A stretch of DNA of 64,000 bases from a virus (taxonomy: Duplodnaviria; Heunggongvirae; Uroviricota; Caudoviricetes): IMG/VR virus record IMGVR_UViG_3300035498_002028; one strand, given 5' to 3'. The number at the start of each line of letters is the position of its first letter. Position 1 is the first letter of the stretch. This document shows positions 36,770 through 52,222 of this stretch, in pieces. Under the pieces are notes generated by a model. The model was given only the letters and a program-made list of their open reading frames with translations. It did no database searches and had not been told where the DNA came from. The translations under genes were made by a program, and so were the position numbers.

Positions 36770-36790
36770 GGTGCATCCTCCTATTCTTTT

Positions 36791-37157: not shown

Positions 37158-37185
37158 AGACTTATCCTCCTTTTATTCCTGCATC

Positions 37186-37362: not shown

Positions 37363-37671
37363 TTAGAAAAATCTGCTGTTGCTCTCACAAGTTTCGATTG
37401 TGACTGCTTCCTGGTTTAAAGCTGTTTTGAGCTGTCCGGCTGCTTTTTCGATGTCCTCTGTTGTACTTCCATAGATTACACATACAAGTGTCGGCTCAAT
37501 TACGATTGTACCGTCATCATGTGTATAAACTCCGGTTCCCTCTGTGATTGTAGCGCCGCCCGTTGTCGCTGCGAAAATGTTCGCTGCTACCTTGTAAGCA
37601 TCCAGCGTTGTTACTTCCTGGCGCTTCGTATCCTGGTCTAATAATCCTACACACATAGTTGTTTTTGTCAT
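37363..37671 (-). CDS. DUF3574-like small protein
   Basis: VGLLDQD...GATITEGTGVYTHDDGTIVIEPT. Confidence 0.6.
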   Translation of the reverse strand: MTKTTMCVGLLDQDTKRQEVTTLDAYKVAANIFAATTGGATITEGTGVYTHDDGTIVIEPTLVCVIYGSTTEDIEKAAGQLKTALNQEAVTIETCESNSRFF

Positions 37672-37708
37672 GGTTCAATCCTCCATATTTTTTGATATTT
37701 GCTATGGC

Positions 37709-37765
37709 GGCGACTTGGAACGCCCTGCCTGGTAGCATTACAGCCCCGGAGGGCTGTCCTCTGCT
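37709..37765 (-). ncRNA. Twister ribozyme (type P5 permutation)
   Basis: AGCA-GA-GGA-CAGCCC(uccg)GGGCUG-U^AA-UGCU-AC-CAGGCAG-GGCG-U-UCC-AA-GU-CGCC. Compensatory changes versus the other twister in P2, P4, T1, T2; predicted cut 37740/37739. Confidence 0.9.
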
Positions 37766-37790
37766 TTTCAATGCTTTTTCTGTCTTGGTT

Positions 37791-38045
37791 TTACATTGCA
37801 ACCGCACCCTTGCCTACAATCGCCTTCATATCATAATAGGTTAAGTCCGGTGCATATTCTTTTAAAAACCATGCCATCTGTTTTCTAGTTGTCGCGCTAT
37901 AGGTTCCGGTGCATTCCACAAATCTTTTTCCACCTTACCGCCAGATGCTTATAACGCGTGTTGTGTAGCTGATGAAGTCCAGTCTATCGCCCTTTACAAC
38001 GTGACACTGTGCGCTTGCGTGCTCTCTTAATTTAGTTTTACTCAT
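37791..38045 (-). pseudogene. First early ORF, interrupted by in-frame TAA
   Basis: 85-codon frame MSKTKL...ISYTTRVISIWR*GGKRFVECTGTYSATTRKQM...; TAA at 37935-37937 (codon 37); RBS GGAGG. Confidence 0.7.
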
Positions 38046-38641
38046 AATAGATAACCTCCTTGATTTTGCTTGCCTTGTTTTGTTGTACTCATATTAACAT
38101 AGTGTTTAGAGCTTGTCAATACCTTTTTTATTATTTTTTTAATCTTTTTTGTATTGACTATGTAGCCCGGTAAACAAGCTATATTGTGTAACTCATTTAC
38201 TAATCACATGATACTATTATATACTTTATATGTCAATAGTTTTTTTGAATTATTTTTAAATTTATTGAAAAACCTTGATTTTGTGGGCGTTTTAGGCGTT
38301 TTTATTTTTGCGGCGTTTGCGTTCCTTCTATATAATGCAAAAAATATGTATATCAGAACTTGACAAGCTGCGATATTATCGGCGCTATTGTGTCGGGTGG
38401 TTCTATGTGGTATTATATGACTTGTGAACTGTCGCAAGGTATCCGGCTATTTTTGGCGCTATGTAGTTTTGATTACTACGTGTGATAGTTTTTGATATTA
38501 TGTTATGTGTATGTAGTTTTTAAAACTATGTTGTGTGATATTGATATTATAACATGTGGTTATTGATGGTATAATGTAGGGTTATGGGAACAATTTAAAA
38601 TAATTTTTTAAACTATGTCAAGTTATCACGCCGATAATGCA

Positions 38642-38838
38642 CTTTAGTGCTTTAGTGCGATAAAGTCACCAGTTTTATTTATTAGCACTCTCTCTTAATG
38701 AGTGCTAATATGCTTCCTGGTATCGGCTCAATATCGCTTTAATGCTTTAGTGTGGTAAAGTCCGTACTTTGCACTATTACGGACTTAACGCCCAAACTAG
38801 GGAACTTTACTGATTTAACGCTTTACCGTGCTAAAGTC
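38642..38838. repeat. Three CTTTA-N6-TAAAG palindromes, each preceded by (C/A)TTTA half-sites at 8-bp pitch
   Basis: 38650-38665, 38745-38760, 38821-38836, all followed by TC. Confidence 0.8.
38682..38708. promoter_or_regulatory. CIRCE element (HrcA operator)
   Basis: TTAGCACTC-tctcttaat-GAGTGCTAA, exact match to the consensus. Confidence 0.9.
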
Positions 38839-39573
38839 AGATGGTGGGGGCGTGTTTACATTTCAGCGAAAAGCCGCAGCCGCCAGGCGTGTAGTATGAG
38901 ATGTTTTTCACTCTCAATCAATAAAATGTTTCCGAGCCGATTCACAGATTTTCAAAATCCCCTACTTTGAGGGTTTACGATGTAAATAGCCGAAAAATCG
39001 AAAAGCCCCCTATTAGGGCGAAAAACACAGATTTACCGAAGTTTACCGAAAGCGCAAAATATGGCAAAATTTGAGTTGAAATATCTGACCTAAACTCTCC
39101 TATCTTGAGGATTTACTTATGAAAAAACATCGGTGTACCGAAGTTCATTTCCCGATGTCATTTAAGATTGGAAAAGTTTTTCTAAAAATCAAAATTTGCA
39201 AAGTGCCGAAAACTGAGGACTTATATTTTTTAAAAATACTCAAAACTTTAAAATTGTTCATTCCAGAATGACCCGACAATCAATAAACGGCAGCAAAAAC
39301 AGGTGGTCAAATATTAGTATAAATCGCCCGAAATTAGAATTGCCGTATATTTACATTGCTTGCGCAATGGCAAAAAGATTTCTCTTTGGTTATAATAAAG
39401 ATATGCTTATCTGACCTTTAAGGCATAGATAATATATAATATGTCTATATATTATATAAGACTAGATATATATTATCTATTAAATATAAGACATATCTTA
39501 CTTATAATATATAGTATTATTATATATAGGAGATGCAGTTTTTTGCAAAATGCCCTAGTTTGAGGGTTTTAAA

Positions 39574-39621
39574 AATAATTCAGAAAAAGTATTGACAATC
39601 TCGTGTTTTAGTGTTATGATG
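39574..39621 (+). promoter_or_regulatory. sigma70 promoter of the RNA polymerase operon
   Basis: Same AATAATTCAGAAAAAG upstream element, TTGACA-N17-TATGAT with extended TG; no GTAA-N5-TTAC operator. Confidence 0.8.
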
Positions 39622-39669
39622 CTTGCAAGAAATTAGATAGATACCTGGAAAAATATAAAGGAAGAAACA

Positions 39670-40374
39670 ATGGAATTTATCAGAATACCTCGCAGCCTTA
39701 TTTATGATAAGGAACTTGGCGACAAAAGAATCCTTGTTTATTCTTCTATACTATTTACATGTTGGAGTTCTAAATGTTGCACTGTAAACAAACTTATAGA
39801 TGACTGCGATTTTGTTAGAGGTCGTGTTAGCTCCGGTGTTGAGAAGCAATTTAAAACGCTAATAGGTTCGTTAATTGAAAAAGGTTTTGTATCCACCCAA
39901 GAAAAACTTGGAGATACCTTTTCTTTTTGTATCAAAGCTCCAATAAATAGTTTTGGTATTATCAATAGGTTCGAATATGATGATATTATCCAATACCGTA
40001 TAAAAGAAAAAGCAAACGGAAAAAGAATAAACCACTCTCATATTCTATTGCTATTGTCTTATATCAGACTTAACATGGACAAGCGAACAGGCAAACCAAT
40101 AATGCACTTTTCGATGCTAAAGACGATATCTGATAATATTGGGCTATCAGTTCGTAGTGTTACAGCTGCACTAAAGATTTTAGAAGAACTCTCGATAATC
40201 CATAGCGAAGAACTTCCTCGGTATCAAGACAAGAATAATAACTGGCATTCTAATGTCAAAGTTTTTGTCAATATAAAACCACCAATGGATAATACCAATT
40301 ACGACTGGCGCGATGAAACTGCGAAGGCAATCGACAGTATTATTTGTAGCCAGAGAGACTTTATAGGAGGATAA
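39670..40374 (+). CDS. Winged-helix-type protein (replication initiator or regulator candidate)
   Basis: IRIPRSLIYD N-terminus; SMLKTISDNIGLSVRSVTAALKILEEL HTH. Confidence 0.55.
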   Translation: MEFIRIPRSLIYDKELGDKRILVYSSILFTCWSSKCCTVNKLIDDCDFVRGRVSSGVEKQFKTLIGSLIEKGFVSTQEKLGDTFSFCIKAPINSFGIINRFEYDDIIQYRIKEKANGKRINHSHILLLLSYIRLNMDKRTGKPIMHFSMLKTISDNIGLSVRSVTAALKILEELSIIHSEELPRYQDKNNNWHSNVKVFVNIKPPMDNTNYDWRDETAKAIDSIICSQRDFIGG

Positions 40375-40382
40375 TATGAGAT

Positions 40383-40772
40383 TTGAAACTTGATGATTTT
40401 CGTCATGTCTCTCTTACCGCAGGGAAACCGGATAGTGACATGACAGATGCACAATGGCAAGAATACTTTTCAATTATGAAGTTGATGACAAAGCAAGGTA
40501 AAGAAAAGAAAATGAAGTCATCTTCTGCTAAACTGATTGTCAACGGTTATTCTTCTGAATGTGAATACCGTGGCGAAACAAGTTACGCTCGTTACTGCCA
40601 ATTCATCAATAGTATGCTAAAAACAATTAGAGGGAATAGTTCAGAGTTACCAGCTCACGACTACTGCTTTTACATCTATCAGATAGCAGACCTCTTGAGA
40701 TTTGAACATGATAATCTCAAAGTTGTTTGGCGACAAAACGATAAATGTTTTGAGGTTTGGTTGGATAAGTAA
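40383..40772 (+). CDS. Hypothetical protein
   Basis: 129-aa ORF, GGAGG RBS. Confidence 0.65.
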   Translation: MKLDDFRHVSLTAGKPDSDMTDAQWQEYFSIMKLMTKQGKEKKMKSSSAKLIVNGYSSECEYRGETSYARYCQFINSMLKTIRGNSSELPAHDYCFYIYQIADLLRFEHDNLKVVWRQNDKCFEVWLDK

Positions 40773-40829
40773 TTTATTTTTTTACTTTATAACCAAGACA
40801 GAACAATTAAGAAAAGAAGGTGACGAGAA

Positions 40830-43613
40830 ATGGAACAAAAGTCTTGCCATAAATTTATTTATAAATTACATAGCAAGCAACTAAGAGAATCTAAATGGGA
40901 TTTGAAATTACCATTGGACATTGCGCTCAGAGATTATTCAGACTGTATTGTGTCATTGAGTGATAACCAGCTTTTGCGGTTTATAGATGAATTAAATGGT
41001 GTTGTTGATGCAGATAAGCAAGCTAGGGATATCAAATATGCTATTAGGGTTGAGAAGAAAAAGCCAAGGAATAGACAAACCAAAATTAAAATCAACTGTC
41101 TTTATCAACAGTTGTATGAGCTTCAATTTCAGAAAGATTATCTTTATGTAATTATGGATAAAAACTCTGATTATGATAGAGCAAATAAAGGGTTTAAAGT
41201 TAATGGAATTCAATATCATCGTTTTCTTGGTACAAATGGTGGAATCAAACAGTCTACTATCGTGTATGTTAGTGAGCGTTTATACCCAGAATTGAAAAGG
41301 CGACTGGATAATGGAAGAAATATGGAAATGGAATTGGTTCCTGCAAAATTAGAAGCGTACCAGGCTTTAATATGTTCTGGTTCTATTCCTATTCCTCAGC
41401 CCAATGGTGTTATTGTCGTGGATGATTGTGTTACCCACTTTACAGAAGATGTAATTATGATTAACGATGAGAATGATGGTGAACCTGTTTTAACAATAGA
41501 GAAAAATTTTGAGATTGAACATAACGATTCAGATGGTTATGGAATGATGCTTCCATCATACGCAAGAAAAGTTAATCAGTATCTTACTGGAAAAGACGAA
41601 GTTATTTCGGGGATGAATACCAGATGGGCTTGGAACAAAGGAATGGTGTACTCTTTTGATTATATTGAGTTTGGGGAAAAGATTGCTGATTCGTATGAGG
41701 TTATTGATGCATGGGGTGATAAGCGAGATATACGAGAATCAGAAGTAATACTTACCACTTCTATGCTTAAACTGTGGGATAGTTATAAAAATTGGGAAGA
41801 TTACTATGATAATTGTTGCAAAAATCATTATCAGTTTTCTACTCCTAAAGTCACCCCGGACAAGTTAGAAAATGTTAGAAACACCAATTACCAGTTTTTA
41901 CAAAGCTATGATTTTACGGATGATGAATTGCGTAGCTTATGTGACCCTACAATCAGAGAATTAAAGGATGTTTTGGGAATGGATTACCGTAAAAGTCTTG
42001 TCTTTATGGCTGGGTATGGATTGGATGAGGACAATGCATTTAACGGCAACTTCGATTATTGTGCCAAGGCGTTAATGATTGATGAGCGGATGATAAATGA
42101 CCCATTTATTCGCAGACGCATATGGAATATGATTTCTAAAAGAATTGAGATGGCAAAACGTGGTGCAATAAAAGTAAATGCTAACTTTGCAATGATATCT
42201 GGCGACCCATATGCTTTATGTCAAAGTATGTTTGGAATGAAAATAACAGGGTTACTTCATAAGGGTGAATTATACCACAAGCATTGGATTGACAAAGGTT
42301 CCACAGAACTAGCGTGTTTTCGTGCGCCAATGACTTGTCATAATAATATCCGGAAAATGAAACTAGCAGATAGAGAGGAAACAAGACATTGGTATCAATA
42401 TATTACCACAGCTGCAATCTTCAACGCCTGGGACACTGCTTGTGATGCAATGAATGGTGCTGATAAAGATGGTGATACTAATATGGATACTGATAATGAG
42501 ATTATTGTAAGAAAAACTCTTAACTCTCCCACTATCATGTGTGTACAGCGCAAGGCAGAAAAAAGGATTCCTTCAGAAGAAGATATTATACAAGCTAATA
42601 AACTGGCATTTAATGATGATATCGGTACTGTTACAAATTATGTTACTAGCATGATTGAGCGACAGGCAGGATTTGACAAAGGGACGCCAGAATATGAGGA
42701 ACTTGCTTATCGTATCATGTGCGGTCAGCTTTATCAACAAAATACCATAGACCGAGCCAAAGGGATTATAGCGAAGCCGATGCCGGATTATTGGTATAAC
42801 TTACATAGATGTATTGTCAAAGATAACGATGATGCAGAAACAGTAAAAGCGAAAAATAAAAACATAACTCTTGTGGCAGCTAATAAACCATACTTTATGA
42901 TGTATGTATACCCACAACTTAAATCAAAAGCAAAGACATATTTTAAAAATAATGATTATGGTGCAATTCTTAGATTTAAGAATTATGGCATCAAGTCAAT
43001 AACCGAACTTATTGATTATGAACCAAAGACACCAGAAATGATTGCATACCTTGATAGTTATTATAAATATATGCCTGTTGGGATAAATGATTGTGTTGTA
43101 AATAGAATATGTCATATATTTGAAAATGAGTTTGATGGTTATTTGTCGAAAAAGTATGAACAGCCAGAATTTGATTATAGTATCATGAAATCGAATGTAG
43201 ATTATTCTAAAAAAGTTTTTAGTGATGTTAAGGATATTTTTAACACCTACATAGAAGAAATGAATGCTTATAAAAAGACAGCCAGAATGCAGAAAGATGA
43301 TTCGGATTATGATATTGCAGAGAGATATCATAGATTTGCCGAAAAGTTTCGTATAGAATGCGAAAAGGTTTGTAGTAATGAAGATGAGTTATGTGATATT
43401 GTTTTGGATTTATGTTATCAAACTTCCAAGACAAAACAATTTGCTTGGGATGTATGTGGAGATAAAATATTGGACAATCTTTTAAAAAACTCAAACTATA
43501 CCATACATATTCCTATACATGTTGAAACAAACGGGGATTTTGAATACTGTGGAGAACAGTTTGAAATGCGTGAGGTTATAATCGGAGGTAGTGATGATGA
43601 TTGTATTGAATGA
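40830..43613 (+). CDS. yonO: YonO-type single-subunit (RdRP-like) DNA-dependent RNA polymerase
   Basis: SDGYG, NKGMV, FRAPM, NGADKDGD catalytic loop, IGTVTN, QNTIDRAKG; sits upstream of SPbeta-like late genes. Confidence 0.9.
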   Translation: MEQKSCHKFIYKLHSKQLRESKWDLKLPLDIALRDYSDCIVSLSDNQLLRFIDELNGVVDADKQARDIKYAIRVEKKKPRNRQTKIKINCLYQQLYELQFQKDYLYVIMDKNSDYDRANKGFKVNGIQYHRFLGTNGGIKQSTIVYVSERLYPELKRRLDNGRNMEMELVPAKLEAYQALICSGSIPIPQPNGVIVVDDCVTHFTEDVIMINDENDGEPVLTIEKNFEIEHNDSDGYGMMLPSYARKVNQYLTGKDEVISGMNTRWAWNKGMVYSFDYIEFGEKIADSYEVIDAWGDKRDIRESEVILTTSMLKLWDSYKNWEDYYDNCCKNHYQFSTPKVTPDKLENVRNTNYQFLQSYDFTDDELRSLCDPTIRELKDVLGMDYRKSLVFMAGYGLDEDNAFNGNFDYCAKALMIDERMINDPFIRRRIWNMISKRIEMAKRGAIKVNANFAMISGDPYALCQSMFGMKITGLLHKGELYHKHWIDKGSTELACFRAPMTCHNNIRKMKLADREETRHWYQYITTAAIFNAWDTACDAMNGADKDGDTNMDTDNEIIVRKTLNSPTIMCVQRKAEKRIPSEEDIIQANKLAFNDDIGTVTNYVTSMIERQAGFDKGTPEYEELAYRIMCGQLYQQNTIDRAKGIIAKPMPDYWYNLHRCIVKDNDDAETVKAKNKNITLVAANKPYFMMYVYPQLKSKAKTYFKNNDYGAILRFKNYGIKSITELIDYEPKTPEMIAYLDSYYKYMPVGINDCVVNRICHIFENEFDGYLSKKYEQPEFDYSIMKSNVDYSKKVFSDVKDIFNTYIEEMNAYKKTARMQKDDSDYDIAERYHRFAEKFRIECEKVCSNEDELCDIVLDLCYQTSKTKQFAWDVCGDKILDNLLKNSNYTIHIPIHVETNGDFEYCGEQFEMREVIIGGSDDDCIE

Positions 43614-44475
43614 GTTGGAATATGCTGAGAATTGTCTTAGACATAAAAGCATAGACACAAAACCATATTTCGCTTTGTCGATTTTAGCGAAATATTATTT
43701 TTACCATTTAGGATATAGCAAAGAACAGATTATTGAAAACTTAACGTCATTTCTGTCTGACGTATATCCTAAATACCAAAAAGAATATGCATATTGGAAT
43801 GACACTATTGAAAAGATGGCAAGCAATGTAGAAAAATATACTCTATATGAGATAGAGGGTGTCTGGATAACAGAAAACGAATTACATACCATTGAAAATA
43901 TAGGAAATAAAGTGTTAGAGCGATTAGCATTTACTATGTTATGTTTGGCAAAACTATCAATTCAAAGAAACCCAAAAAGTAACGGATGGATAAATGATGA
44001 CGCTAAATCAATTTTTTCACTTGCTAGAATATCTGGAAGTGTTACTGATAGGTATGTACGCATTAGTGATTTATATGATTTGGGGTTGATAGAACTTCCT
44101 AAAAAGAATGATTTACTCAGTTATAGAGTTACATTTATTGACAATGAGAGCAAGAATGTTTTATTTATACATGATTTTCGTGAACTCGGATATGAGTATT
44201 TGAAATATAAAGGACAAAATTTTATTCGTTGTGCTGAATGTGGGATTTTAGTTCGTGGTAATAAAGCTGGAACCAAACATTATTGTTCTAGCTGCATAGC
44301 TTACTCTCCTATCAAAGCCAAAAAGATTAAATGTATTGATTGTGGCAAAGAATTTGAGGTTGAATCTATATCACGAAGGATTCGTTGCGATATGTGTTAT
44401 GAAAATGAGAGAAAGCGCATCAATAGGGAAAACCAAAGGAAATGGAAAGAAAAAAATAATACCACTTCATTTTAG
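43591..44475 (+). CDS. Hypothetical protein with C-terminal tandem zinc fingers
   Basis: CAECG..CSSC, CIDCG..CDMC; overlaps the RNAP stop. Confidence 0.75.
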   Translation: MMMIVLNELEYAENCLRHKSIDTKPYFALSILAKYYFYHLGYSKEQIIENLTSFLSDVYPKYQKEYAYWNDTIEKMASNVEKYTLYEIEGVWITENELHTIENIGNKVLERLAFTMLCLAKLSIQRNPKSNGWINDDAKSIFSLARISGSVTDRYVRISDLYDLGLIELPKKNDLLSYRVTFIDNESKNVLFIHDFRELGYEYLKYKGQNFIRCAECGILVRGNKAGTKHYCSSCIAYSPIKAKKIKCIDCGKEFEVESISRRIRCDMCYENERKRINRENQRKWKEKNNTTSF

Positions 44476-44713
44476 GATAGTTTTGAAATGACCGCTTGTA
44501 AACCCTCAATTTAGGGTGGAAATTTAAGGTCGATAAAAAAATTGAATTTTCTTAATATAGAGGGAGATGTAGCTTAGGTTATATCTTCCACTCTATTCTT
44601 CATTTCTTTATCTTTCTCTTTTCTTTGTGTGACGTATCTGGTATGGCGTTCAATGTTGTACCAGGTACGTATTAACAAGATAAGAGATTTTAGTTCAATA
44701 GGGAGGAAATATC

Positions 44714-45343
44714 ATGATTACATTGAAGAAAAGTTTTGAATTACAGAATTATTTAAAACAGCTTTTTGATAGTGCCATTACTGTACTTTCATTTACAGAT
44801 AATGTGACAACAACCAAACAGGAGCATATGAGGAAGAAAGCATATGTTGGTGCAGAGGACGAAGAAATCATTAAACCAAAAAGAAATGATTATCAAATCG
44901 AGGTAATGGAGCTTATTGATTTTGCGTGTGATATTCAGAAAAACATGGAGCAGCTTACTACAGCCATCAACGATGCAAAGCATTCAGCGGATAATGACTT
45001 TGATAGTTTAATTGCGATTAACAATCGCAAGAGAACTCTTCTTAATCGTTTATCCATCATGACAACTATTAAGCCATCTGAATGCATAATTACAGGAACA
45101 TCTACAAAGTTTAATGAAGAAGGAAACCAGGTAAAGTATACATACGATATCAAAGAGGTTACTACTATTGACTTTGACAGGAATGCCGTAAAAGCCATTG
45201 TATCGAGATTGCGTCAAGAGGTAGATTCCACTTCTACGCAAATTGATTTAATGCAGCTTAACACAATGGTGGATTTTGAAACAATATACGAGATTGGCGA
45301 TAGTCTTGAGGATGCTGTCTCAAAATATACACAGAGTAAATAG
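44714..45343 (+). CDS. Coiled-coil protein of unknown function, upstream of a long ncRNA
   Basis: 209 aa, GGAGG RBS, heptad helices with beta-hairpin insert (KFNEEGNQVKYTYD). Confidence 0.85.
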   Translation: MITLKKSFELQNYLKQLFDSAITVLSFTDNVTTTKQEHMRKKAYVGAEDEEIIKPKRNDYQIEVMELIDFACDIQKNMEQLTTAINDAKHSADNDFDSLIAINNRKRTLLNRLSIMTTIKPSECIITGTSTKFNEEGNQVKYTYDIKEVTTIDFDRNAVKAIVSRLRQEVDSTSTQIDLMQLNTMVDFETIYEIGDSLEDAVSKYTQSK

Positions 45344-45433
45344 CAATTGTTTTGGGCTATTGGGAATCATCCTTCTAAATTATTATATGAATATTAAATG
45401 GGTTGTCCGATTCTCAAATCTCCCAATTAAATA

Positions 45434-45885
45434 GCGGCTATTATATAGAGAGCTGAAACGATTATTAGTTGCAATCGCTTCAAGTGCAGATGAAGTATAA
45501 CGCTGTACAGTTTAGGATTACTATATAATTCTATATCAACGATAGTTGATTTCAAATATATCAAGTATAAAAGCGTCTATGATTTCGATGATAGATAATG
45601 CAGAATTAAAGATGGGTTATACACTCTTTCGATGCGAACATCTCTCAGCGCGAATTCAATACTACCCTATCACTCTCATTCGATATGTCGTACTAACAAT
45701 CAACATTTACGAGCAACGTGTTCTTAGTGAGATAATATACAAAACAATCAGAAAGTTTGTAACGATATTTACATATTATTAGATTTCGTGAACAAAAAGA
45801 AATTTTAATTAACAAAATTTAGCAAAACATTTTTAGTAAATTGATTGGATTGATATGACATTTCAGTTTTCTATATAGTAGCCGC
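45434..45885 (+). ncRNA. Candidate ~450-nt structured non-coding RNA
   Basis: 45434-45458 pairs with 45861-45885 (25/25 bp, 3 G-U); internal hairpins; no credible ORF. Confidence 0.75.
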
Positions 45886-45892
45886 AATACCT

Positions 45893-45976
45893 GGGTAGGT
45901 ATGCAAGCGGCTCAAAGCGGTCAGACTGTAAATCTGATGCCATTTGGCTTCGCAGGTTCGAATCCTGCCCTGCCCA
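45893..45976 (+). tRNA. tRNA-Tyr(GUA)
   Basis: Cloverleaf, TCAGA-CTGTAAA-TCTGA, long variable arm. Confidence 0.93.
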
Positions 45977-46059
45977 TTATAACTAAATAGGGGTATGTGT
46001 TTGCGGACACATAGAAGATGAAAACCTACTTCACGATAAGAGGAAATGCTTATCATTAT

Positions 46060-46131
46060 GCTGGCGTGGCTCAATGGTAGAGCAACTGACCTGTAATCAG
46101 TGGGTTGTGGGTTCAAGTCCCTCCGTCAGCT
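46060..46131 (+). tRNA. tRNA-Thr(UGU), C33 variant
   Basis: ACTGA-CCTGTAA-TCAGT; TTCAAGT T-loop. Confidence 0.88.
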
Positions 46132-46135
46132 TTAT

Positions 46136-46208
46136 TGGAGTATAACTCAGTTGGTAGAGTACCTGTCTGATACACAGGTTGTCAGCAGTTCAAATCTGCT
46201 TGCTCCAA
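46136..46208 (+). tRNA. tRNA-Ile(GAU)
   Basis: CCTGT-CTGATAC-ACAGG. Confidence 0.9.
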
Positions 46209-46252
46209 TTATCAATATGGCATATGTCATATAGGTTATCCCTAGACTAAAG

Positions 46253-47713
46253 TTGTATGGGAGGATATGTATGGGAAAGAAGAAAATAAAGAATGATGGG
46301 ATTTACTTTACCGGAGAATCAGCAAATGATGTGACTGGTTCACAATATGTTGTAAAATTCGGAAACTATCAATGTCTTTTAGAATGTGGACTACACCAAT
46401 CAAAAAGTAATAGTTTTCTTGATTCATATAGAATCAACTCTGCAAAGTTTAAATTTAAACCAGCAGATATAGACTTTTTATTTGTTGCACATCCGCATAT
46501 AGACCATTGTGGTCTTATTCCAAGATTGGTAAAAGAAGGTTTTCATGGGGAAATTATTACTACACAGAAAACGGCGATGATTATGAAGCCGCTTTTACTG
46601 AACTCCTGCTATATTGTTGAAGATGAAGCAAGAGTATTATCAAAACGCTATAGCAGAGAATATAAACCATTATACACTGAGGAAGATGTATATAATACAC
46701 TTGACCTGATTTGCACATATGATAATTATGATGAAATCATAGAACTCAATGAAGTTGTAAGTTTTCAATGGTTAAAGAACGCACATTGTATTGGTGCTGC
46801 TCAATTGCAGCTTATATTATCTGATGAGCGAAAAACAAAAAAGATTTTATATACTTCTGATATTGGTGCTTTGGAAACAAATAATCATTATTTAGAGAAT
46901 ACTGAGATTCCGGCAATGTTTAATGACGTTGTTATTATGGAATCTACATATGGAAGTTCTGCAAGAATAAACAAGAAAACCAGAAATTTTGACATTGAAC
47001 ATTTGCGTGTTGCTATCAACACAGTTATAGAACGCAAAGGAAGTGTCATATTGCCGTGCTTTAGTTTTAGCAGAACTCAAGAACTTTTAACAACATTATA
47101 TGATATTTTTGGTAACGATAATAATTTCAATGTACCAATTATTGTTGATTCAAAGTTGAGTTGCGAAATTTGTGATTTATATAATGAATTATTAGATGGC
47201 TCAGATTTTGAATATTGGAATAATGTGTACACATGGAAAAATGTAAAATATATATCTGAAAAGACTGATTCACAGGCTTGTCTTTCTGATAATCAACCAA
47301 AGATAATTATTTCTTCATCTGGTTTTTGTACAAATGGTAGGATTATTAACTATCTACAAAAATATTTAAAAGATGTGAATAGTATGATTATCTTCTCTGG
47401 TTATATTGGTGACAATCCTTCTTATCTATCATATCGGATAAAAAATTATCGTGACCATAAAGATATTAAAATTAACAAAGAACAGATTCCAAATAAAGCT
47501 GATTGTATTACGCTTTCTACATTTAGTAGCCATGCTGGACATAATGACTTAATTAAATATGGTAGTTCATTACTAACAAATAAATTAGTCCTAGTGCATG
47601 GCTCAGAAGAAAGCAAACTTTGTTTGGCAGACAAATTAAAAGATGCTATATCCAAAAATAATAAGACTTATAAGGTGATTCCGTCTGTAAAGGATATGGT
47701 TATACATTTGTAG
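46253..47713 (+). CDS. Metallo-beta-lactamase/beta-CASP ribonuclease
   Basis: VTGS, ECG, HPHIDHCG, AHCIGA, YTSDIG, MESTYG, FSFSRTQEL, SSHA, LVHG; start probably MGKKK. Confidence 0.92.
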   Translation: MYGRICMGKKKIKNDGIYFTGESANDVTGSQYVVKFGNYQCLLECGLHQSKSNSFLDSYRINSAKFKFKPADIDFLFVAHPHIDHCGLIPRLVKEGFHGEIITTQKTAMIMKPLLLNSCYIVEDEARVLSKRYSREYKPLYTEEDVYNTLDLICTYDNYDEIIELNEVVSFQWLKNAHCIGAAQLQLILSDERKTKKILYTSDIGALETNNHYLENTEIPAMFNDVVIMESTYGSSARINKKTRNFDIEHLRVAINTVIERKGSVILPCFSFSRTQELLTTLYDIFGNDNNFNVPIIVDSKLSCEICDLYNELLDGSDFEYWNNVYTWKNVKYISEKTDSQACLSDNQPKIIISSSGFCTNGRIINYLQKYLKDVNSMIIFSGYIGDNPSYLSYRIKNYRDHKDIKINKEQIPNKADCITLSTFSSHAGHNDLIKYGSSLLTNKLVLVHGSEESKLCLADKLKDAISKNNKTYKVIPSVKDMVIHL

Positions 47714-47726
47714 GAGGTAAAAAGAT

Positions 47727-48332
47727 ATGGAGAATGCTAAAGAAGTATTTAATTACTGCTTAGAGGACAAATATGAAATTGAAGATGATAAGTTGCGTAG
47801 AATTTATATCAATTACGGAATTGATGATGATGTAATTGATACAGCTGTCTATCAGATTTTAAAATATAACAGAATGGATAAGGGCAAACCTCGTGAAGAT
47901 AGAGAGCCAATTATTGTCTACATTAACTCACCAGGGGGAAGTGTAACTTCTGGATATGGCTTAATTGATGCTATCATGACAAGTGAAACTCCTGTATATA
48001 CTGTAAATTTAGCAGAATGTTATTCTATGGGATTTTTAATTTTCCTTGCCGGAGAAAAGCGTTTTGGAATGCCAAGCTCTACATATTTATGTCATGACGG
48101 AAGTTCTATGGCATGGGATTCTATGAGCAAGTTAAAAGATAGAATGGAATTTGAAACAGGACAGATGGAGAAACACACAAAAGAATATGTGTTATCTCGT
48201 ACAACAATTTCAAATGAGTTATATGATAATAAATATAGAACAGAATGGTATATGTATCCAGAGGAAGCAAAATCAAACGGTGTAGTTACTCATATCGTTG
48301 GAAAAGATTGCAAAATGGATGACATTTTATAA
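47727..48332 (+). CDS. clpP: ClpP-family protease subunit
   Basis: INSPGGSV..G, CYSMG (Ser), LCHD (His). Confidence 0.85.
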   Translation: MENAKEVFNYCLEDKYEIEDDKLRRIYINYGIDDDVIDTAVYQILKYNRMDKGKPREDREPIIVYINSPGGSVTSGYGLIDAIMTSETPVYTVNLAECYSMGFLIFLAGEKRFGMPSSTYLCHDGSSMAWDSMSKLKDRMEFETGQMEKHTKEYVLSRTTISNELYDNKYRTEWYMYPEEAKSNGVVTHIVGKDCKMDDIL

Positions 48333-48346
48333 CATAGTTCAATACG

Positions 48347-48378
48347 AAGTCCTGCTAGTTTTCTAGCGGGACTTTTTA
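48347..48378 (+). terminator. Intrinsic terminator
   Basis: AAGTCCTGCTAG-tttt-CTAGCGGGACTT then TTT. Confidence 0.75.
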
Positions 48379-49613
48379 TGTCACGAAAGGAAATAAGAAT
48401 GTTACAGGAATTAAAAGAAAAGATTCAAGAGTATGGCTTAACTTTAGAGCAATATGAATCATGCCTTTCTGATGCTTATGCAAAAGCCAACCATGAAATT
48501 GATTTAGATTGGCAAGAGATTGTTAATAAGTATGGTTTAGATATTCATTATGATACTCTGAGAAAAGCTACACAAACCATTTTTGGCGGCGCTTTTGTTT
48601 CAGAATATTTTAAATCTAAGTATGCAGCTGAGCATAGCGAAGATTCTTATTTACAAGAATTAAGAGAAGCCAAACAGGAATTACGAAAAGAAAAGCAAAA
48701 AATGTTCGATGAGCGTACTGAGTTAAATAGAAAACTCAGAGAACAGGCACGGACTGAAAATGATTTAACCTATATGGAAACGCTGATTAAAGAAAAAGCA
48801 TTTGAGAGTTTACCAACCATCAACTCTCCTGCTATTTCTTCTGATAACGATTTAGCGATATGCATATCTGATTTCCATTTAGGTTCTCAAAATGACAATT
48901 ATTTTGGAAAATTCGATTCTGACATTGCAGCAGAGAGATTAAATAACTATCTTGCAAGAATTTTGGAAATCCAGAAAACACATAATTCTGAAAACGCATA
49001 TGTTCTATTACTTGGGGATTTATTAAACGGTGAGATTCATTTTACCACTCAATTAGAGAATAGGGAGAATGTTACAGAACAGGTCAAAAAATGTGCAGAA
49101 TTGCTCTCAGCGTTCATTTATGAGTTAAGCAAGCACTTTAAAAATGTATATGTTAATGGTGTTGCTGGAAATCATAGTCGTACTTCTTTTAAAGACCAAG
49201 TTCTTAGAAGTAATAGATTGGATAATTTGATTCCTTGGTATATGAAGGCAGCACTACAGCATCTTGAAAATGTAAAATTTATTGATAATGAAAATTATGA
49301 TTCTACTATTGCCATGGTAAATATTCGAAATCATGAATATTGGATGGTTCATGGAGATTATGATTCATATACACAAAACGGAGTATCAAAATTAGTTATG
49401 ATGTTTGGTTTTAAACCAACTGGTATTTTTTATGGTCATCTACATAAATGCAGCTATGATGATATTTGTGGAGTAAAAATCATCCGCAGTGGTAGCTTCG
49501 CAGGAACAGGTGATGATTATTGTGTTTCTAAACGTATTTATGGAAATGCAAGTCAGATGGTCGCTGTATTGGACGATAAGGGGGTACATGCATGTTACCC
49601 TATTGATTTATAG
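48378..49613 (+). CDS. Calcineurin-like metallophosphoesterase with coiled-coil N-terminus
   Basis: SDFHLG, LGDLLNG, GNHSR, HGD, GHLH. Confidence 0.85.
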   Translation: MSRKEIRMLQELKEKIQEYGLTLEQYESCLSDAYAKANHEIDLDWQEIVNKYGLDIHYDTLRKATQTIFGGAFVSEYFKSKYAAEHSEDSYLQELREAKQELRKEKQKMFDERTELNRKLREQARTENDLTYMETLIKEKAFESLPTINSPAISSDNDLAICISDFHLGSQNDNYFGKFDSDIAAERLNNYLARILEIQKTHNSENAYVLLLGDLLNGEIHFTTQLENRENVTEQVKKCAELLSAFIYELSKHFKNVYVNGVAGNHSRTSFKDQVLRSNRLDNLIPWYMKAALQHLENVKFIDNENYDSTIAMVNIRNHEYWMVHGDYDSYTQNGVSKLVMMFGFKPTGIFYGHLHKCSYDDICGVKIIRSGSFAGTGDDYCVSKRIYGNASQMVAVLDDKGVHACYPIDL

Positions 49614-49628
49614 AAACGGAGAAAAGAA

Positions 49629-49913
49629 ATGGGAAGAAGTGAACTAATTACAAATATATCACAGAAAACGGGAATGACTAAGGCTGATTGTGAGAGGATG
49701 CTTGATGCTTTTTCTGATACAGTCAAAGAATCATTGGTAAATGGCGAGAAAATTATCATTAAAGGTTTTATGAGCATGGAAGTTGCTGAACGTGCTGAGC
49801 GCTCCGGCAGAAACCCTAAAACCGGAAAGATAGATATTTTCCCAGCAGTAAAAACAGTTAAATGTAAGATTGCCAAAGCAATAAAAGATGCAGTCAATGA
49901 AAAACAGGAGTGA
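49629..49913 (+). CDS. hup: HU/IHF-family DNA-binding protein
   Basis: ERAERSGRNPKTG...VKCK signature. Confidence 0.92.
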   Translation: MGRSELITNISQKTGMTKADCERMLDAFSDTVKESLVNGEKIIIKGFMSMEVAERAERSGRNPKTGKIDIFPAVKTVKCKIAKAIKDAVNEKQE

Positions 49914-50437
49914 TTAACATGGAGAAAATTGTATTTAAAGATTATGAAACACTTGCAGATATGATGTTTGACGTAGCAGAAGCAGGTGATACAGCATATG
50001 CAGTATGTTTTTTCGATGACGCAGCTAAACTCTTGAAAGAGTTAATGAGTTTCGATGAAACAAGTGTTGGTGGAATTAACATTATGGATGTTGATTATAA
50101 TGGGTATTCAAAAGAATATTACATATCTATTGATGGAGATTATATTATTGATGTCCAGCCAGCATATAGCAAGGAGCTTAATAATGGTAAGGGTGCATAT
50201 TTAACGTATACAGCAGAAAAGACCTTTATTGTTGGAGAAGCCAATTCGGTCATCATCAAAGGTATAGATGATGATAAATGTTATGAAATCGAATTTGATA
50301 CTGACAAACATGATGATGGTTGTGATGTATTAGATATGATTTTTGACAACGCAAAAATTATTGAAGGTGCAGATGGAGAACCTATCGGCATTGGAATTGA
50401 TGTTTTAGCACTATTAAGTGTTTTATTTGGAGAGTAG
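49910..50437 (+). CDS. Acidic hypothetical protein
   Basis: 175-aa ORF. Confidence 0.7.
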   Translation: MINMEKIVFKDYETLADMMFDVAEAGDTAYAVCFFDDAAKLLKELMSFDETSVGGINIMDVDYNGYSKEYYISIDGDYIIDVQPAYSKELNNGKGAYLTYTAEKTFIVGEANSVIIKGIDDDKCYEIEFDTDKHDDGCDVLDMIFDNAKIIEGADGEPIGIGIDVLALLSVLFGE

Positions 50438-50455
50438 TTAATACTCTCCCACTAT

Positions 50456-50528
50456 TCTCACATAGCTCAGTTGGCAGAGCAACGGTCTGTTAAACCGTGG
50501 GTCGCAAGTTCGAGCCTTGCTGTGAGAG
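50456..50528 (+). tRNA. tRNA-Asn(GUU)
   Basis: ACGGT-CTGTTAA-ACCGT. Confidence 0.92.
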
Positions 50529-50532
50529 CTAT

Positions 50533-50606
50533 TGGAGTGTGGTCTAGCTTGGTATGACGCTGCATTTGGGATGCAGAGGTCGCGGGTTCAAATCCTGTCA
50601 CTCCAA
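50533..50606 (+). tRNA. tRNA-Pro(UGG)
   Basis: CTGCA-TTTGGGA-TGCAG. Confidence 0.92.
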
Positions 50607-50613
50607 TTTTATA

Positions 50614-50685
50614 GCTGGCGGTAGGTCGGATATCTAGCTGTGGCTCATAACCATGGTAAAATTGGTTCAACTCCAATGCGTAGCA
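50614..50685 (+). tRNA. Degenerate tRNA-like element, anticodon CAU
   Basis: CTCATAA loop, ATTGG-TTCAACT-CCAAT T-arm; weak acceptor stem, short D-loop. Confidence 0.5.
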
Positions 50686-50755
50686 ATTTATCAACAAAGA
50701 TAATAATTAAATATAAATCGAATTTTAAGCCGCATTCTTTGTGGTTTATTTTTAT

Positions 50756-50826
50756 GGCGTGTTGGTCAAGTGGTAAGACATATCCCTTTCACGGATATAT
50801 CACGAGTTCGAACCTCGTACACGTCA
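50756..50826 (+). tRNA. tRNA-Glu(UUC)
   Basis: TATCC-CTTTCAC-GGATA. Confidence 0.92.
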
Positions 50827-50833
50827 CTAACTT

Positions 50834-50916
50834 GGAGAGTAAATCATTAAGGCAATGAACCCGCCCGCTAAGCGGTGTGAGCTGAAAGGCTTCTGTTTCG
50901 AGTACAGTGCTCTTCG
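50834..50916 (+). tRNA. tRNA-Ser(GCU), C33 variant
   Basis: CCGC-CCGCTAA-GCGG, variable arm AGC..GCT. Confidence 0.75.
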
Positions 50917-50922
50917 TTTTAT

Positions 50923-50994
50923 GGCTGTGTAGTTAAATGGCTATAATACCACACTGTCACTGTGGAGTTCGGAGTTCGATTCTCCGCATGGTCG
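50923..50994 (+). tRNA. tRNA-Asp(GUC)
   Basis: CCACA-CTGTCAC-TGTGG. Confidence 0.88.
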
Positions 50995-51005
50995 TTATGT
51001 ATTCA

Positions 51006-51077
51006 GTCTGCTTGGTGTAATGGACAGCATATAACACTACGAATGTTAAGATAATAGTTCGATTCTATTAGCAGATA
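51006..51077 (+). tRNA. tRNA-Arg(ACG)
   Basis: TAACA-CTACGAA-TGTTA. Confidence 0.88.
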
Positions 51078-51082
51078 TTTTT

Positions 51083-51157
51083 ATCCGTATAGCTTAATGG
51101 AATTAGAGCAACGCCCTTCTAAGACGTATTATCTCAGTTCAAATCTGAGTACGGATA
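51083..51157 (+). tRNA. tRNA-Arg(UCU)
   Basis: CTTCTAA loop; ATCCGTA/TACGGAT acceptor. Confidence 0.85.
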
Positions 51158-51162
51158 TTTTT

Positions 51163-51251
51163 GGCAGCGTACCGAAATGGTTATAACGGCGCAGACTTGA
51201 AATCTGTTGTGCCGAGAAATCGGCATATGGGTTCGAATCCTATCGCTGTCG
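51163..51251 (+). tRNA. tRNA-Ser(UGA)
   Basis: GCAGA-CTTGAAA-TCTGT, long variable arm. Confidence 0.92.
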
Positions 51252-51298
51252 CTTAATAGTTGATAATAATAAAATAGTTGAAAGAAAAGAGGTAGCTT

Positions 51299-52222
51299 AT
51301 GCCTAGAAGCAATTCAAATAATAGCGATAATGGTTATACTTGCTGCCACTGCAACGAACCATTATCAACTAAAAGTTATTACAAAAATAACAGTGATTTT
51401 TACTTTGGCATACATCATTTGCCAATTTGCAAGAACTGCCTAAACAAGATGTTCAATCTTTATGCTTTGCAATATCAAAGTACAAAGAAAGCGATGCAAC
51501 GATTATGCATGGCTTATGATTTATATTATAATGAAGCATTATTTGAATCTTGCGATGACGGTAGTGATGTAGTTGTAGGAAATTATATCAAAAAATTAAA
51601 TATGAACCAATACAAAAATAAGACCTTCGATACTTCTATTAACGAAGGTTTTTCTTTTGGAATACAGTCAGCTTCCACTAAACAACCTCAAAATTCAGAT
51701 GATGAATCTGGCGAATCTGACGAACCACAAGTTGACCCTAAGTTAGTTATGAAATGGGGAAATGGATTTTCATATTCTGATTATATGCTTTTAGAAGAGC
51801 ACTATACTCAGCTGAAAAGAAATAATCCTAATACTACTAGCAACCAGGAAATTTTTATTACTTCCCTATGTCATCTAAATATGTTAATGATGAAAGCACT
51901 CAGAGAAAGTGATTTAGATGCTTATGCAAAGGCTAATGAACAATATGGAAAAACTTTTGCAAAAGCAGGTCTTAAAACAGTCCAAGAAGTTGATATGGGT
52001 AGTGATGACTGTTGGGGAGAATGGGTTCGTAGAATTGAGGAATATACTCCGGCAGAATATTACAAGAATAAGGAATTATTCAAAGATTATGACAATGTTG
52101 GAGATTATTTCAAGAGATTTGTATTGCGTCCGCTTCGTAATCTAATGCACGGCACTACAGATAGGGATTATGAGTATTGTGTCAAGGATGGTGATGAAGA
52201 TGAATTCTCAGAACCAAACTAA
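51299..52222 (+). CDS. Zn-finger protein, putative terminase small subunit
   Basis: CCHC..CKNC N-terminus; directly precedes the large terminase. Confidence 0.55.
   Translation: MPRSNSNNSDNGYTCCHCNEPLSTKSYYKNNSDFYFGIHHLPICKNCLNKMFNLYALQYQSTKKAMQRLCMAYDLYYNEALFESCDDGSDVVVGNYIKKLNMNQYKNKTFDTSINEGFSFGIQSASTKQPQNSDDESGESDEPQVDPKLVMKWGNGFSYSDYMLLEEHYTQLKRNNPNTTSNQEIFITSLCHLNMLMMKALRESDLDAYAKANEQYGKTFAKAGLKTVQEVDMGSDDCWGEWVRRIEEYTPAEYYKNKELFKDYDNVGDYFKRFVLRPLRNLMHGTTDRDYEYCVKDGDEDEFSEPN

What the first reader, a model, noticed from the sequence alone, without database searches (positions are those of the whole stretch)
44714..45885. Coiled-coil gene followed by a ~450-nt non-coding RNA closed by a 25-bp stem: candidate unknown ribonucleoprotein module
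Seen: after the 209-aa gene, GCGGCTATTATATAGAGAGCTGAAA (45434-45458) pairs over all 25 nt with TTTCAGTTTTCTATATAGTAGCCGC (45861-45885). The three non-Watson-Crick positions are all G-U, which points to an RNA stem on this strand rather than a DNA inverted repeat. Inside are hairpins at 45459-45477, 45478-45495, 45535-45550 (ATCAAC-GATA-GTTGAT) and 45816-45842, plus a pyrimidine-rich stretch (45620-45715) with CACTCT..TTCGAT twice. A further stem (45360-45368/45409-45417) precedes it and tRNA-Tyr starts 7 nt after it, which would give a processed 3' end. Recollection, unverified: similar proteins (F..QN.L, KFN.EGNQV.Y..D...V.TIDFDR) occur in clostridial genomes before a ~0.5-kb gene-free tract, reminiscent of DIP1984-type loci. 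Inference: the protein and RNA form a dedicated complex of unknown function in the late region.
Basis: partly seen in the sequence, partly recalled or inferred. Interest (0 to 1): 0.88.

Follow-up and report, generated by a model that had tools for sequence, protein, structure and literature searches.

The report
New phage RNA with partner protein
The flagged stretch is a real, expressed, roughly 450-base folded non-coding RNA of a family in no catalogue, and in phages and bacterial genomic islands it always sits directly behind one small unknown protein gene, so the two look like a new protein-plus-RNA module of unknown function.

Summary
The 25-bp stem (45434-45458/45861-45885, three G-U) is the only stem of 16 bp or more with that reach on the + strand of the 64-kb window.

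It closes a conserved RNA:
- 106 distinct relatives (306-517 nt) keep the closing stem with different sequences.
- They also keep a second long-range helix and a near-invariant H-type pseudoknot.
- Isolated mismatches in the stem are G-U 123 times and A-C 19 times, so the + strand is the RNA strand.
- Six gut metatranscriptome runs hold exact-match contigs on the RNA interior. The four of them laid on 20 kb of the phage hold almost nothing else.

No Rfam 15 family matches. A genuine ROOL RNA lies elsewhere in one genome that also carries this RNA.

The link to the 209-aa gene runs both ways. An RNA-only pattern found 69 of 69 testable viral contigs with the gene just upstream. The stem starts a median 15 nt after the stop codon, which implies co-transcription.

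The protein is acidic, in no family, and has a DIP1984-like (PDB 3KDQ) fold. Physical binding is not shown. A tRNA follows in only 13 of 105 loci, and the region is not late.

This scan earlier noted an architecturally similar protein-plus-RNA pair in T5-like phages. I found no homology to it.

The parts
44714..45343 (+). Gene of the 209-aa partner protein: acidic, with a helical plus beta-hairpin fold like DIP1984 (PDB 3KDQ)
   Evidence: ORF. 137 homologues, none with an informative name. No Pfam, PHROG, NCBIfam or PADLOC family. AlphaFold model pLDDT 90.5. 3kdq_A at Z 10.8 with 146 of 152 residues aligned. pI 4.9.
45360..45417 (+). Extra stem-loop between the gene and the RNA (45360-68 pairs with 45409-17), with a conserved loop start GGAAUCAUCCUUCUA. 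Present only in the nearest relatives.
   Evidence: Sequence. The same stem and loop motif occur in L008 and L012, and in L013 with a compensatory change (sequences).
45434..45885 (+). The whole structured RNA (452 nt)
   Evidence: Fold. Alignment of 32 full-length relatives and RNAalifold. Single hit of model R1 in the window. RNA-seq contigs.
45434..45458 (+). P1, 5' arm of the 25-bp closing stem
   Evidence: 26 aligned pairs, 96% of cells paired against 65% in shuffles, every pair with compensatory changes.
45861..45885 (+). P1, 3' arm of the closing stem
45463..45476 (+). P2, 5' strand. The core 45472-45476 (CAAUC) pairs with 45843-45847. The extension 45463-45470 pairs with 45848-45855, with G45471 bulged.
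   Evidence: Core: 5 pairs with types such as CG/UA/UG and AU/GC. Extension: alifold of 9 close relatives, and a different sequence in L035 seen by eye.
45477..45508 (+). H-type pseudoknot. Stem 1 is 45477-81 with 45492-96. Stem 2 is 45484-89 with 45503-08. Loop 3 (45497-45502) is A-rich.
   Evidence: the count of structure pairs: 97.2% of cells paired, 0 of 500 shuffles as high, slid controls 27-47%. Nine invariant bases.
45514..45532 (+). P3 hairpin directly after the pseudoknot (45514-20 with 45526-32)
   Evidence: Read by eye from the alignment rows of close relatives (RNAalifold did not call it there): GGAUUA/UAAUUC, GGUAU/AUAUC, GGUGA/UCGCC, GGAAUU/AAUUCC. Similar GGNN/NNCC hairpins occur in other groups.
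45620..45715 (+). G-poor, C/U/A-rich tract, probably single-stranded; CACUCU..UUCGAU occurs twice
   Evidence: Sequence. Family-wide, the lowest G content in an 80-nt window has a median of 0.10, against 0.14 in shuffles and 0.23 overall. All six RNA-seq contigs cover it.
45838..45855 (+). Conserved AAAUUG junction followed by the 3' strand of P2
   Evidence: Nearly invariant A, A, U, G columns. Pair counts.
45892..45977 (+). tRNA-Tyr, first of a three-tRNA array. It could set the RNA's 3' end through RNase P in this phage.
   Evidence: A tRNA follows within 150 nt in only 13 of 105 distinct loci.

Best explanation
Window 45434-45885 (+) encodes a member of an uncatalogued family of stable structured RNAs of 306-517 nt.

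Shown:
- A long closing helix P1 (median 23.5 gapless bp) and a second long-range helix P2 form a rod that brings the two ends together.
- P2 abuts a near-invariant H-type pseudoknot.
- The interior holds variable hairpins and a G-poor tract.
- The RNA accumulates in gut metatranscriptomes.
- It is found only directly behind one small protein gene.

Inferred:
- Gene and RNA are made as one transcript from the gene's promoter, because P1 starts a median 15 nt after the stop codon.
- The rod shields the RNA from exonucleases, or gives RNase III a cutting site that frees it from the mRNA.
- In large phages such as this one, RNase P cutting at the next tRNA trims the 3' end.

Most likely, but not shown: the acidic 209-aa DIP1984-fold protein is translated from the same transcript and assembles with the RNA, probably at the conserved P2/pseudoknot junction, into a dedicated particle. 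That particle would display the single-stranded tract and act in phage-host conflict, for example as a decoy or sponge for a host factor. The module travels both in large phages and in bacterial islands rich in recombinases and defence genes.
For: Structure:
- RNAalifold on 32 relatives gives 33 pairs, 32 of them with compensatory changes.
- P1 is 96% paired against 65% in shuffles.
- The P2 core covaries.
- The pseudoknot is 97% paired, with 0 of 500 shuffles as high.
- P1 was found in 63 of 64 independent bacterial loci.

Strand and coding:
- G-U 123 against A-C 19 among isolated mismatches in P1.
- The longest ORFs are no longer than in shuffles.

Expression: exact-match contigs from six metatranscriptome runs lie only on 45539-45827. 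None lies on the protein gene. In the four runs (X1, X4, X5, X7) laid on 20 kb there is otherwise one contig of 174 nt and two pieces under 20 nt.

Linkage:
- Model R1 hits once, on the + strand, just after the gene in 69 of 80 bacterial loci and 62 of 80 viral loci.
- An RNA-only pattern over all IMG/VR contigs gave 69 of 69 testable hits with the gene ending 56-123 nt upstream.
- The gap from stop codon to P1 has a median of 15 nt.

Context: one copy lies between an integrase and a tRNA-Pro attachment site beside a Dnd cluster; another lies beside a resolvase, an IS110 transposase, a HerA-like ATPase and a NYN protein.
Against: - No binding evidence of any kind.
- The protein is acidic in all 22 members checked and has no recognisable RNA-binding domain.
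- RNA-seq contigs cover only the interior, not P1, P2 or the pseudoknot, so the mature ends are unknown.
- The contigs cannot show strand or transcript ends.
- The window's own gap between gene and RNA is 90 nt, so a separate promoter is possible here.
- ROOL and GOLLD, the nearest analogues, work without known proteins.
- A later check of this scan's similar claim on T5-like phages kept the observation but rated its bold reading at 1 in 100.
Confidence: 0.55

Rival explanations
1. The RNA works alone, like ROOL or GOLLD. It would be a self-folding, perhaps self-assembling, abundant phage RNA. The upstream gene would only lend its promoter, or serve a related but physically separate role.
For: - Same kind of carriers and, in large phages, the same tRNA neighbourhood as ROOL and GOLLD (PMC5737381).
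- No partner protein is known for those RNAs (PMC12286853).
- The protein here is acidic.
- The RNA, not the mRNA, is what shows up in RNA libraries.
Against: The two-way linkage of 69 of 69 loci holds down to about 30% protein identity and across very different mobile elements. A mere promoter donor would be expected to be swapped during that time.
Confidence: 0.22
2. The module is a defence or addiction system of mobile elements. The RNA would be an antitoxin, sensor or scaffold that holds the protein (and, in Oscillospiraceae, two small downstream proteins) in check until infection.
For: - It sits in cargo position between integrase and attachment site beside a Dnd cluster.
- Another copy lies beside HerA-like and NYN genes, a resolvase and IS110.
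- Up to three copies occur per genome.
- Its occurrence is sporadic: 1 of 150 sampled genomes.
- The 87-aa and 139-aa genes downstream are conserved in one lineage.
Against: - No PADLOC match.
- No toxin-like domain.
- The RNA is neither repetitive nor upstream of the gene, as type III antitoxins are.
- The same module sits in the core of large, apparently virulent phages among tRNAs.
Confidence: 0.13
3. The element is purely cis-acting. It would be a 3' untranslated structure that stabilises or times the protein's mRNA, or an RNase III processing stalk that separates the mRNA from downstream tRNAs.
For: - P1 starts 4-34 nt after the stop codon in most loci.
- Stems of 25-30 bp resemble the rRNA leader-trailer processing helices (established knowledge).
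- In this phage a tRNA follows 6-7 nt later.
Against: - 300-500 nt with two long-range helices, an invariant pseudoknot and further conserved motifs is far more than a stabiliser needs.
- A tRNA follows in only 13 of 105 loci.
- The RNA part outlasts the mRNA in RNA libraries.
Confidence: 0.09
4. It is a DNA-level feature: inverted repeats of a small mobile insertion or a recombination site.
For: At first sight there are two inverted arms about 400 bp apart.
Against: - Mismatches in the arms are G-U on one strand 6.5 times more often than A-C.
- The arms differ completely in sequence between relatives while staying complementary.
- The position relative to the stop codon is fixed.
- The inner pseudoknot covaries.
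Confidence: 0.01

Closest known systems
ROOL RNA (Rfam RF03087; Weinberg et al. 2017, PMC5737381; cryo-EM in PMC12286853)
   Same: A large, pseudoknotted, abundant non-coding RNA of unknown function, carried by phages and prophages of Bacillota and often near tRNA genes.
   Different: - No match to the ROOL model in the window (E up to 10) or in 12 relatives.
- A true ROOL (403 bits) lies at another place in a genome that also has two copies of this RNA, and no homologue of the 209-aa protein is near ROOL.
- This RNA is shorter, is closed by a much longer perfect stem, and has an obligatory upstream gene.
GOLLD RNA (Rfam; large phage/prophage RNA near tRNA islands)
   Same: Same genomic habit in large phages: next to tRNA arrays. 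Function unknown.
   Different: No Rfam match. About half the size. Has a partner gene.
The protein-plus-RNA pair after gene T5.085 of phage T5, noted earlier by this scan (not in print as far as I found)
   Same: A 212-aa protein gene, then within about 15 nt the 5' arm of a closing stem. An H-type pseudoknot with an A-rich loop 3 lies about 30 nt further on. The RNA is about 357 nt (sequence read, fold).
   Different: - No detectable homology.
- Model R1 and the protein profile find nothing in T5.
- hhalign probability is 0.1.
- An HMM built from 183 family proteins scores T5.085 at 0.6 bits.
DIP1984 family protein (NCBIfam NF038048; PDB 3KDQ, Corynebacterium diphtheriae, function unknown)
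   Same: Best structural match of the protein model, covering nearly the whole crystal chain (Z 10.8; Foldseek probability 0.82).
   Different: - No sequence match to NF038048 at E up to 1.
- This protein is about 55 residues longer.
- 17 true DIP1984 loci have only chance-level downstream stems of 9-14 bp.
RNAs encoded next to their protein partner on mobile elements (TnpB omega RNA, retron ncRNA, type III antitoxins)
   Same: The RNA is encoded immediately beside the gene and probably on the same transcript. Retron RNAs are also closed by paired ends.
   Different: No nuclease, reverse transcriptase or toxin domain among the adjacent genes scanned. The RNA is not repetitive.

Membership tests
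ROOL (RF03087) | Match to the Rfam covariance model at or near the gathering score (99.1 bits) | tested here: not met
   No hit at E up to 10 on window 45200-46300 or at E up to 1 in 12 diverse relatives. The same model scores 403 and 339 bits on true ROOL RNAs in related genomes.
GOLLD and all other Rfam 15 families (including tmRNA, RNase P, 6S, OLE, raiA, HEARO) | Match to any of the 4227 covariance models | tested here: not met
   Only tRNAs and two twister ribozymes reach threshold in the window. Nothing lies on the RNA at E up to 10 or in relatives. ARAGORN finds no tmRNA.
DIP1984 family (NF038048) | Sequence match to the NCBIfam model (cut-off 70 bits) | tested here: not met
   No match at E up to 1. 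True members in the same phylum score 150-196 bits.
DIP1984 family (NF038048) | Shared three-dimensional fold with PDB 3KDQ | tested here: inconclusive
   3kdq_A is the top hit among 48,161 chains: Z 10.8, rmsd 4.3, 146 of 152 residues. The tool warns that a Z under about 13 in mostly helical models can reflect a common arrangement.
New family proposed here (gene plus stem-closed pseudoknotted RNA) | Core motif (P2 5' strand plus H-type pseudoknot) 40-130 nt after the stop codon of a homologue of the 209-aa protein, enclosed by a closing stem of 12 bp or more spanning 300-520 nt | tested here: met
   The window hits model R1 at 63.9 bits at 45462-45513. P1 is 25 bp with a span of 452 nt. The gene ends at 45343.
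Retron / reverse-transcriptase-linked ncRNA | Adjacent reverse transcriptase gene | tested here: not met
   The three ORFs on each side in the window, the six ORFs flanking the module in L227 and ten in L400 show no reverse transcriptase.
Type III toxin-antitoxin | Tandem RNA repeats upstream of an endoribonuclease toxin | tested here: not met
   No notable direct repeats in the RNA. The RNA lies downstream of the gene. The protein has no nuclease family match.

The most novel reading that the evidence does not exclude
The 209-aa protein and the RNA form a dedicated ribonucleoprotein particle of a kind not yet described. The T5.085 pair may be a distant cousin, which would make stem-closed pseudoknotted RNAs with a roughly 210-aa partner a widespread, overlooked class of phage and island particles. 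Such particles would act in phage-host conflict, for example by trapping a host factor on the exposed G-poor strand or by building a larger RNA assembly that carries the protein.
Probability: 0.3. Interest if true: 0.85.

Novelty: new variant of a known kind. Interest (0 to 1): 0.72.

Why it matters
Large, intricately folded bacterial and phage RNAs are rare, and each class found so far (ribosomal RNAs, RNase P, group I and II introns, OLE, ROOL, GOLLD, raiA) has proved biochemically unusual. ROOL and GOLLD were recently shown to build RNA-only cages, yet their function and partners are still unknown.

This family offers what those lack. It has an obligatory protein gene, which gives a genetic and biochemical handle. 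It also has carriers in culture (Pseudoflavonifractor capillosus ATCC 29799, Intestinimonas massiliensis, Flavonifractor species). That makes the question of what such phage RNAs do directly testable.

Its position in genomic islands beside defence genes also makes it a candidate for a new RNA-based player in phage-host conflict in the gut.

Tried and rejected
- GenBank phages hold no DNA or protein relative of the module.
- A 16-nt 3' motif search in IMG/VR gave only chance hits, unrelated to the family.
- No whole genome is held for the window. MAFFT Q-INS-i is not installed.
- The hairpin 45459-45477 read by the first stage is rejected as the conserved fold, in favour of the long-range helix P2.
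- RNAalifold on the full alignment recovers only P1 and one pseudoknot stem. The interior aligns too poorly across groups, so interior helices beyond P3 are not claimed.
- A link to phage T5's T5.085 pair was sought by covariance model, profile, hhalign and a 183-sequence HMM, and was not found.
- True DIP1984 loci were tested for a downstream stem-closed RNA. They show only chance-level stems.
- The upstream neighbour is not conserved between the phage and the island.
- The 87-aa and 139-aa downstream genes belong to one lineage only and are absent from the window.
- Literature searches for the RNA, DIP1984 and septicolysin gave nothing relevant.
- No complex prediction was run, because the tool cannot take RNA as a partner.

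Full report
**Observation**

I read 44400-46300. All 25 positions of 45434-45458 pair with 45861-45885: 22 Watson-Crick pairs and three G-U pairs on the + strand. The minimum-energy fold of the + strand uses this stem (z = -3.97, no shuffle as good). The - strand folds no better than chance (z = -1.41). A scan of the whole 64-kb window for gapless stems of 16 bp or more spanning 300-620 nt finds exactly one on the + strand, and it is this one. tRNA-Tyr begins 6-7 nt after it.

**Conservation**

The 209-aa protein has 137 homologues in the large protein collection, none with an informative name. It has none in GenBank phages. Loci fetched from IMG/VR and from bacterial genomes all carry, right after the gene, a stretch closed by a long stem whose sequence differs from locus to locus.

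Across 106 distinct RNAs:
- The gapless part of the stem has a median of 23.5 bp (range 12-32).
- The enclosed RNA has a median of 388 nt (range 306-517).

In an alignment of 32 full-length members, RNAalifold returns 33 pairs, 32 of them with compensatory double changes. My own counts on the same alignment give 96% paired cells for P1, against 65% after shuffling and 39-46% with slid partners.

**Structure**

Just inside P1 lies a second long-range helix, P2.
- In the window its core 45472-45476 pairs with 45843-45847. The five core pairs vary as CG; UG/CG/UA; AU/GU/GC; AU/GC; CG/AU.
- In the close relatives it extends through 45463-45470 with 45848-45855.

P1 and P2 together therefore form a rod of about 40 bp.

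The next base opens an H-type pseudoknot. Stem 1 is 45477-81 with 45492-96, stem 2 is 45484-89 with 45503-08, and loop 3 is A-rich. It has nine invariant bases. On 32 sequences it is 97.2% paired, no shuffle in 500 reaches that, and slid controls give 27-47%.

Further features:
- A hairpin follows at about 45514-45532 and covaries among close relatives. I read these pairs by eye from the alignment rows; RNAalifold did not call this hairpin.
- The 3' strand of P2 is preceded by a nearly invariant AAAUUG.
- A G-poor tract lies near the middle. The lowest G content in an 80-nt window has a median of 0.10, against 0.14 in shuffles.

**Strand and coding**

Isolated non-Watson-Crick positions inside P1, each flanked by two Watson-Crick pairs on both sides, are G-U 123 times, A-C 19 times and other 20 times. 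Selection therefore acts on the + strand RNA, the strand of the protein gene. The longest ORFs inside the RNAs (median 47 aa) are no longer than in shuffled copies (median 43 aa).

**Expression**

Six gut metatranscriptome runs hold part of the stretch. When the contigs are laid on the window, each run has one contig with 0-1 differences, and all six lie inside the RNA:

| Run | Contig on window |
|---|---|
| X1 | 45594-45827 |
| X3 | 45577-45743 |
| X4 | 45545-45730 |
| X6 | 45547-45713 |
| X5 | 45539-45713 |
| X7 | 45581-45713 |

None lies on the protein gene. Four of these runs (X1, X4, X5, X7) were also laid on the 20 kb from 36001 to 56000. There the only other pieces are one 174-nt contig in one run and two pieces under 20 nt. 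DNA carry-over would not pick out this one place, so the RNA is made and outlasts the neighbouring mRNAs. Contigs cannot give the strand or the true ends, and they do not reach P1, P2 or the pseudoknot.

**The protein**

It matches no Pfam, PHROG, NCBIfam or PADLOC family. The AlphaFold model is confident (pLDDT 90.5). It shows long helices with two beta-hairpins rather than a plain coiled coil. Its best match among 48,161 solved chains is 3KDQ, the DIP1984-type protein of Corynebacterium diphtheriae, at Z 10.8 with 146 of 152 residues aligned. The tool warns that such Z values in helical models can reflect a common arrangement. All 22 members checked are acidic, with pI 4.9-5.7.

**Linkage**

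A 52-position covariance model of the core (R1) behaves as follows:
- It hits the window once, at 45462-45513.
- It hits once, on the + strand just after the gene, in 69 of 80 bacterial loci that played no part in building it.
- It hits 62 of 80 IMG/VR loci. The viral loci checked among those without a hit (9 of 18) carry variant cores but still have long closing stems.

In the other direction, an RNA-only sequence pattern run over all 2.9 million IMG/VR contigs gave 95 stretches (80 listed). Every one of the 69 with at least 700 nt upstream has the protein gene ending 56-123 nt before the core.

P1 starts a median 15 nt after the stop codon, and within 34 nt in 95 of 106 loci. That leaves no room for a separate promoter in most loci, so co-transcription is the simplest reading. 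The window's own gap is 90 nt and holds an extra stem-loop shared with three close relatives.

**Where it lives**

- Viral contigs of about 100-215 kb from gut and rumen samples.
- Bacterial genomes of Oscillospiraceae (Flavonifractor, Pseudoflavonifractor, Intestinimonas, Lawsonibacter), Lachnospiraceae, Intestinibacter and Selenomonadaceae.
- Up to three copies per genome, but only 1 of 150 randomly drawn genomes of the phylum.

In one complete genome a copy lies between a tyrosine integrase and a tRNA-Pro attachment site, beside DndB/C/D/A-like genes and helicase genes. In another genome it lies beside a resolvase, an IS110 transposase, a HerA-like ATPase and a NYN protein. Two small downstream genes are conserved only in the Oscillospiraceae lineage and are absent from the window.

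In the window the neighbours are:
- a 927-aa protein whose homologues carry the RdRP (PF05183) domain typical of YonO-like phage RNA polymerases;
- tRNAs;
- a beta-CASP RNase, a ClpP-like protease and an exonuclease.

This is not a late region. A tRNA follows the RNA within 150 nt in only 13 of 105 distinct loci.

**Comparison with what is known**

No Rfam 15 family matches the RNA in the window or in 12 diverse relatives. The ROOL model does find a true ROOL RNA (403 bits) elsewhere in a genome that also holds two copies of this RNA, and no homologue of the protein lies near ROOL. The two RNAs are therefore separate classes that share carriers and, in large phages, a tRNA neighbourhood (PMC5737381; PMC12286853).

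Seventeen true DIP1984-family loci have downstream stems of only 9-14 bp. I estimate chance would give that in a search space of this size.

This scan's earlier notes describe a 212-aa gene plus a roughly 357-nt pseudoknotted RNA in T5-like phages. I read that locus, T5.085. It has the same layout: the stop codon, then the 5' arm of a closing stem within about 15 nt, then an H-type pseudoknot with an A-rich loop 3. No homology could be shown by covariance model, profile, hhalign or a 183-sequence HMM. A later check of that earlier claim kept the observation (94 in 100) but rated its bold reading at 1 in 100. I therefore hold the particle idea as likely but unproven.

**Mechanism**

Shown: a conserved, expressed, stem-closed, pseudoknotted RNA that is inseparable from one gene.

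Inferred:
- The gene and the RNA are co-transcribed.
- The P1/P2 rod protects the ends or serves as an RNase III site.
- RNase P trims the 3' end where a tRNA follows.

Most likely but untested: the protein assembles on the conserved junction of its own transcript's 3' part, and the particle acts in phage-host conflict. The main rivals are an RNA-only role like that of ROOL and GOLLD, a defence or addiction module, and a purely cis-acting 3' element. A DNA-level repeat is excluded by the strand asymmetry.

**Verdict**

This is a real new RNA family with an obligatory protein gene. It is of the same general kind as ROOL and GOLLD but is not a member of either. Carriers exist in culture, which makes direct tests possible.

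Noticed in passing
window 37186-37241 (-) and 37709-37765 (-): Two type-P5 twister ribozymes above the Rfam gathering score (48.6 and 44.2 bits against 37.6).
   Followed up: no
window 40830-43613 (+): The 927-aa ORF two genes upstream has homologues in relatives that carry Pfam RdRP (PF05183), the fold of YonO-like single-subunit phage RNA polymerases. The window's own copy gave no Pfam hit at E 0.01, only PHROG families of unknown function.
   Followed up: partly
window 20417-20984 (-): A 22-bp gapless long-range stem on the - strand spans the end of a 387-aa ORF, the intergenic gap and the start of a 193-aa ORF. The 581-nt stretch folds with z = -5.13. It is the only other long stem of this reach in the window.
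   Followed up: partly
window 45360-45417 (+): The stem-loop before the RNA has a loop start, GGAAUCAUCCUUCUA, that is kept in three close relatives. From memory it resembles the 3' end of Bacillota 16S rRNA (GGAUCACCUCCUUUCUA). Possible mimic or promoter element; untested.
   Followed up: no
window 46253-47713 (+): A beta-CASP/RMMBL metallo-beta-lactamase RNase (RNase J/CPSF-like) lies directly after the three tRNAs. Homologues also show weak hits to the anti-Pycsar Apyc1 family.
   Followed up: no
window 54871-55044 (+), inside the 549-aa ORF 54044-55693: This is the only other place in 20 kb with an exact-match contig of more than 20 nt in a metatranscriptome run (X5). It may be a highly expressed gene or a stable fragment.
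   Followed up: no
L073, L078, L086 (and L077, L084, L085) downstream of the protein gene: More distant relatives keep the long closing stem (13-30 bp, span 359-482 nt) but have variant cores. One group has a hairpin with a conserved AGCGAU loop; another has a pseudoknot of different sequence.
   Followed up: partly
G001:C1:1054053-1054651 (locus L393) and L397: The genome with two copies of the new RNA also holds a full ROOL RNA (403 bits). Beside one copy of the module it has a DndB/C/D/A-like phosphorothioation cluster with a large NTPase and a DEAD-box helicase.
   Followed up: partly
L047, L066, L020, L035 just after the core pseudoknot: In one group of relatives the loop of hairpin P3 is complementary to the bases right after the hairpin (for example GAUAU with AUAUC). 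This suggests a second pseudoknot.
   Followed up: no
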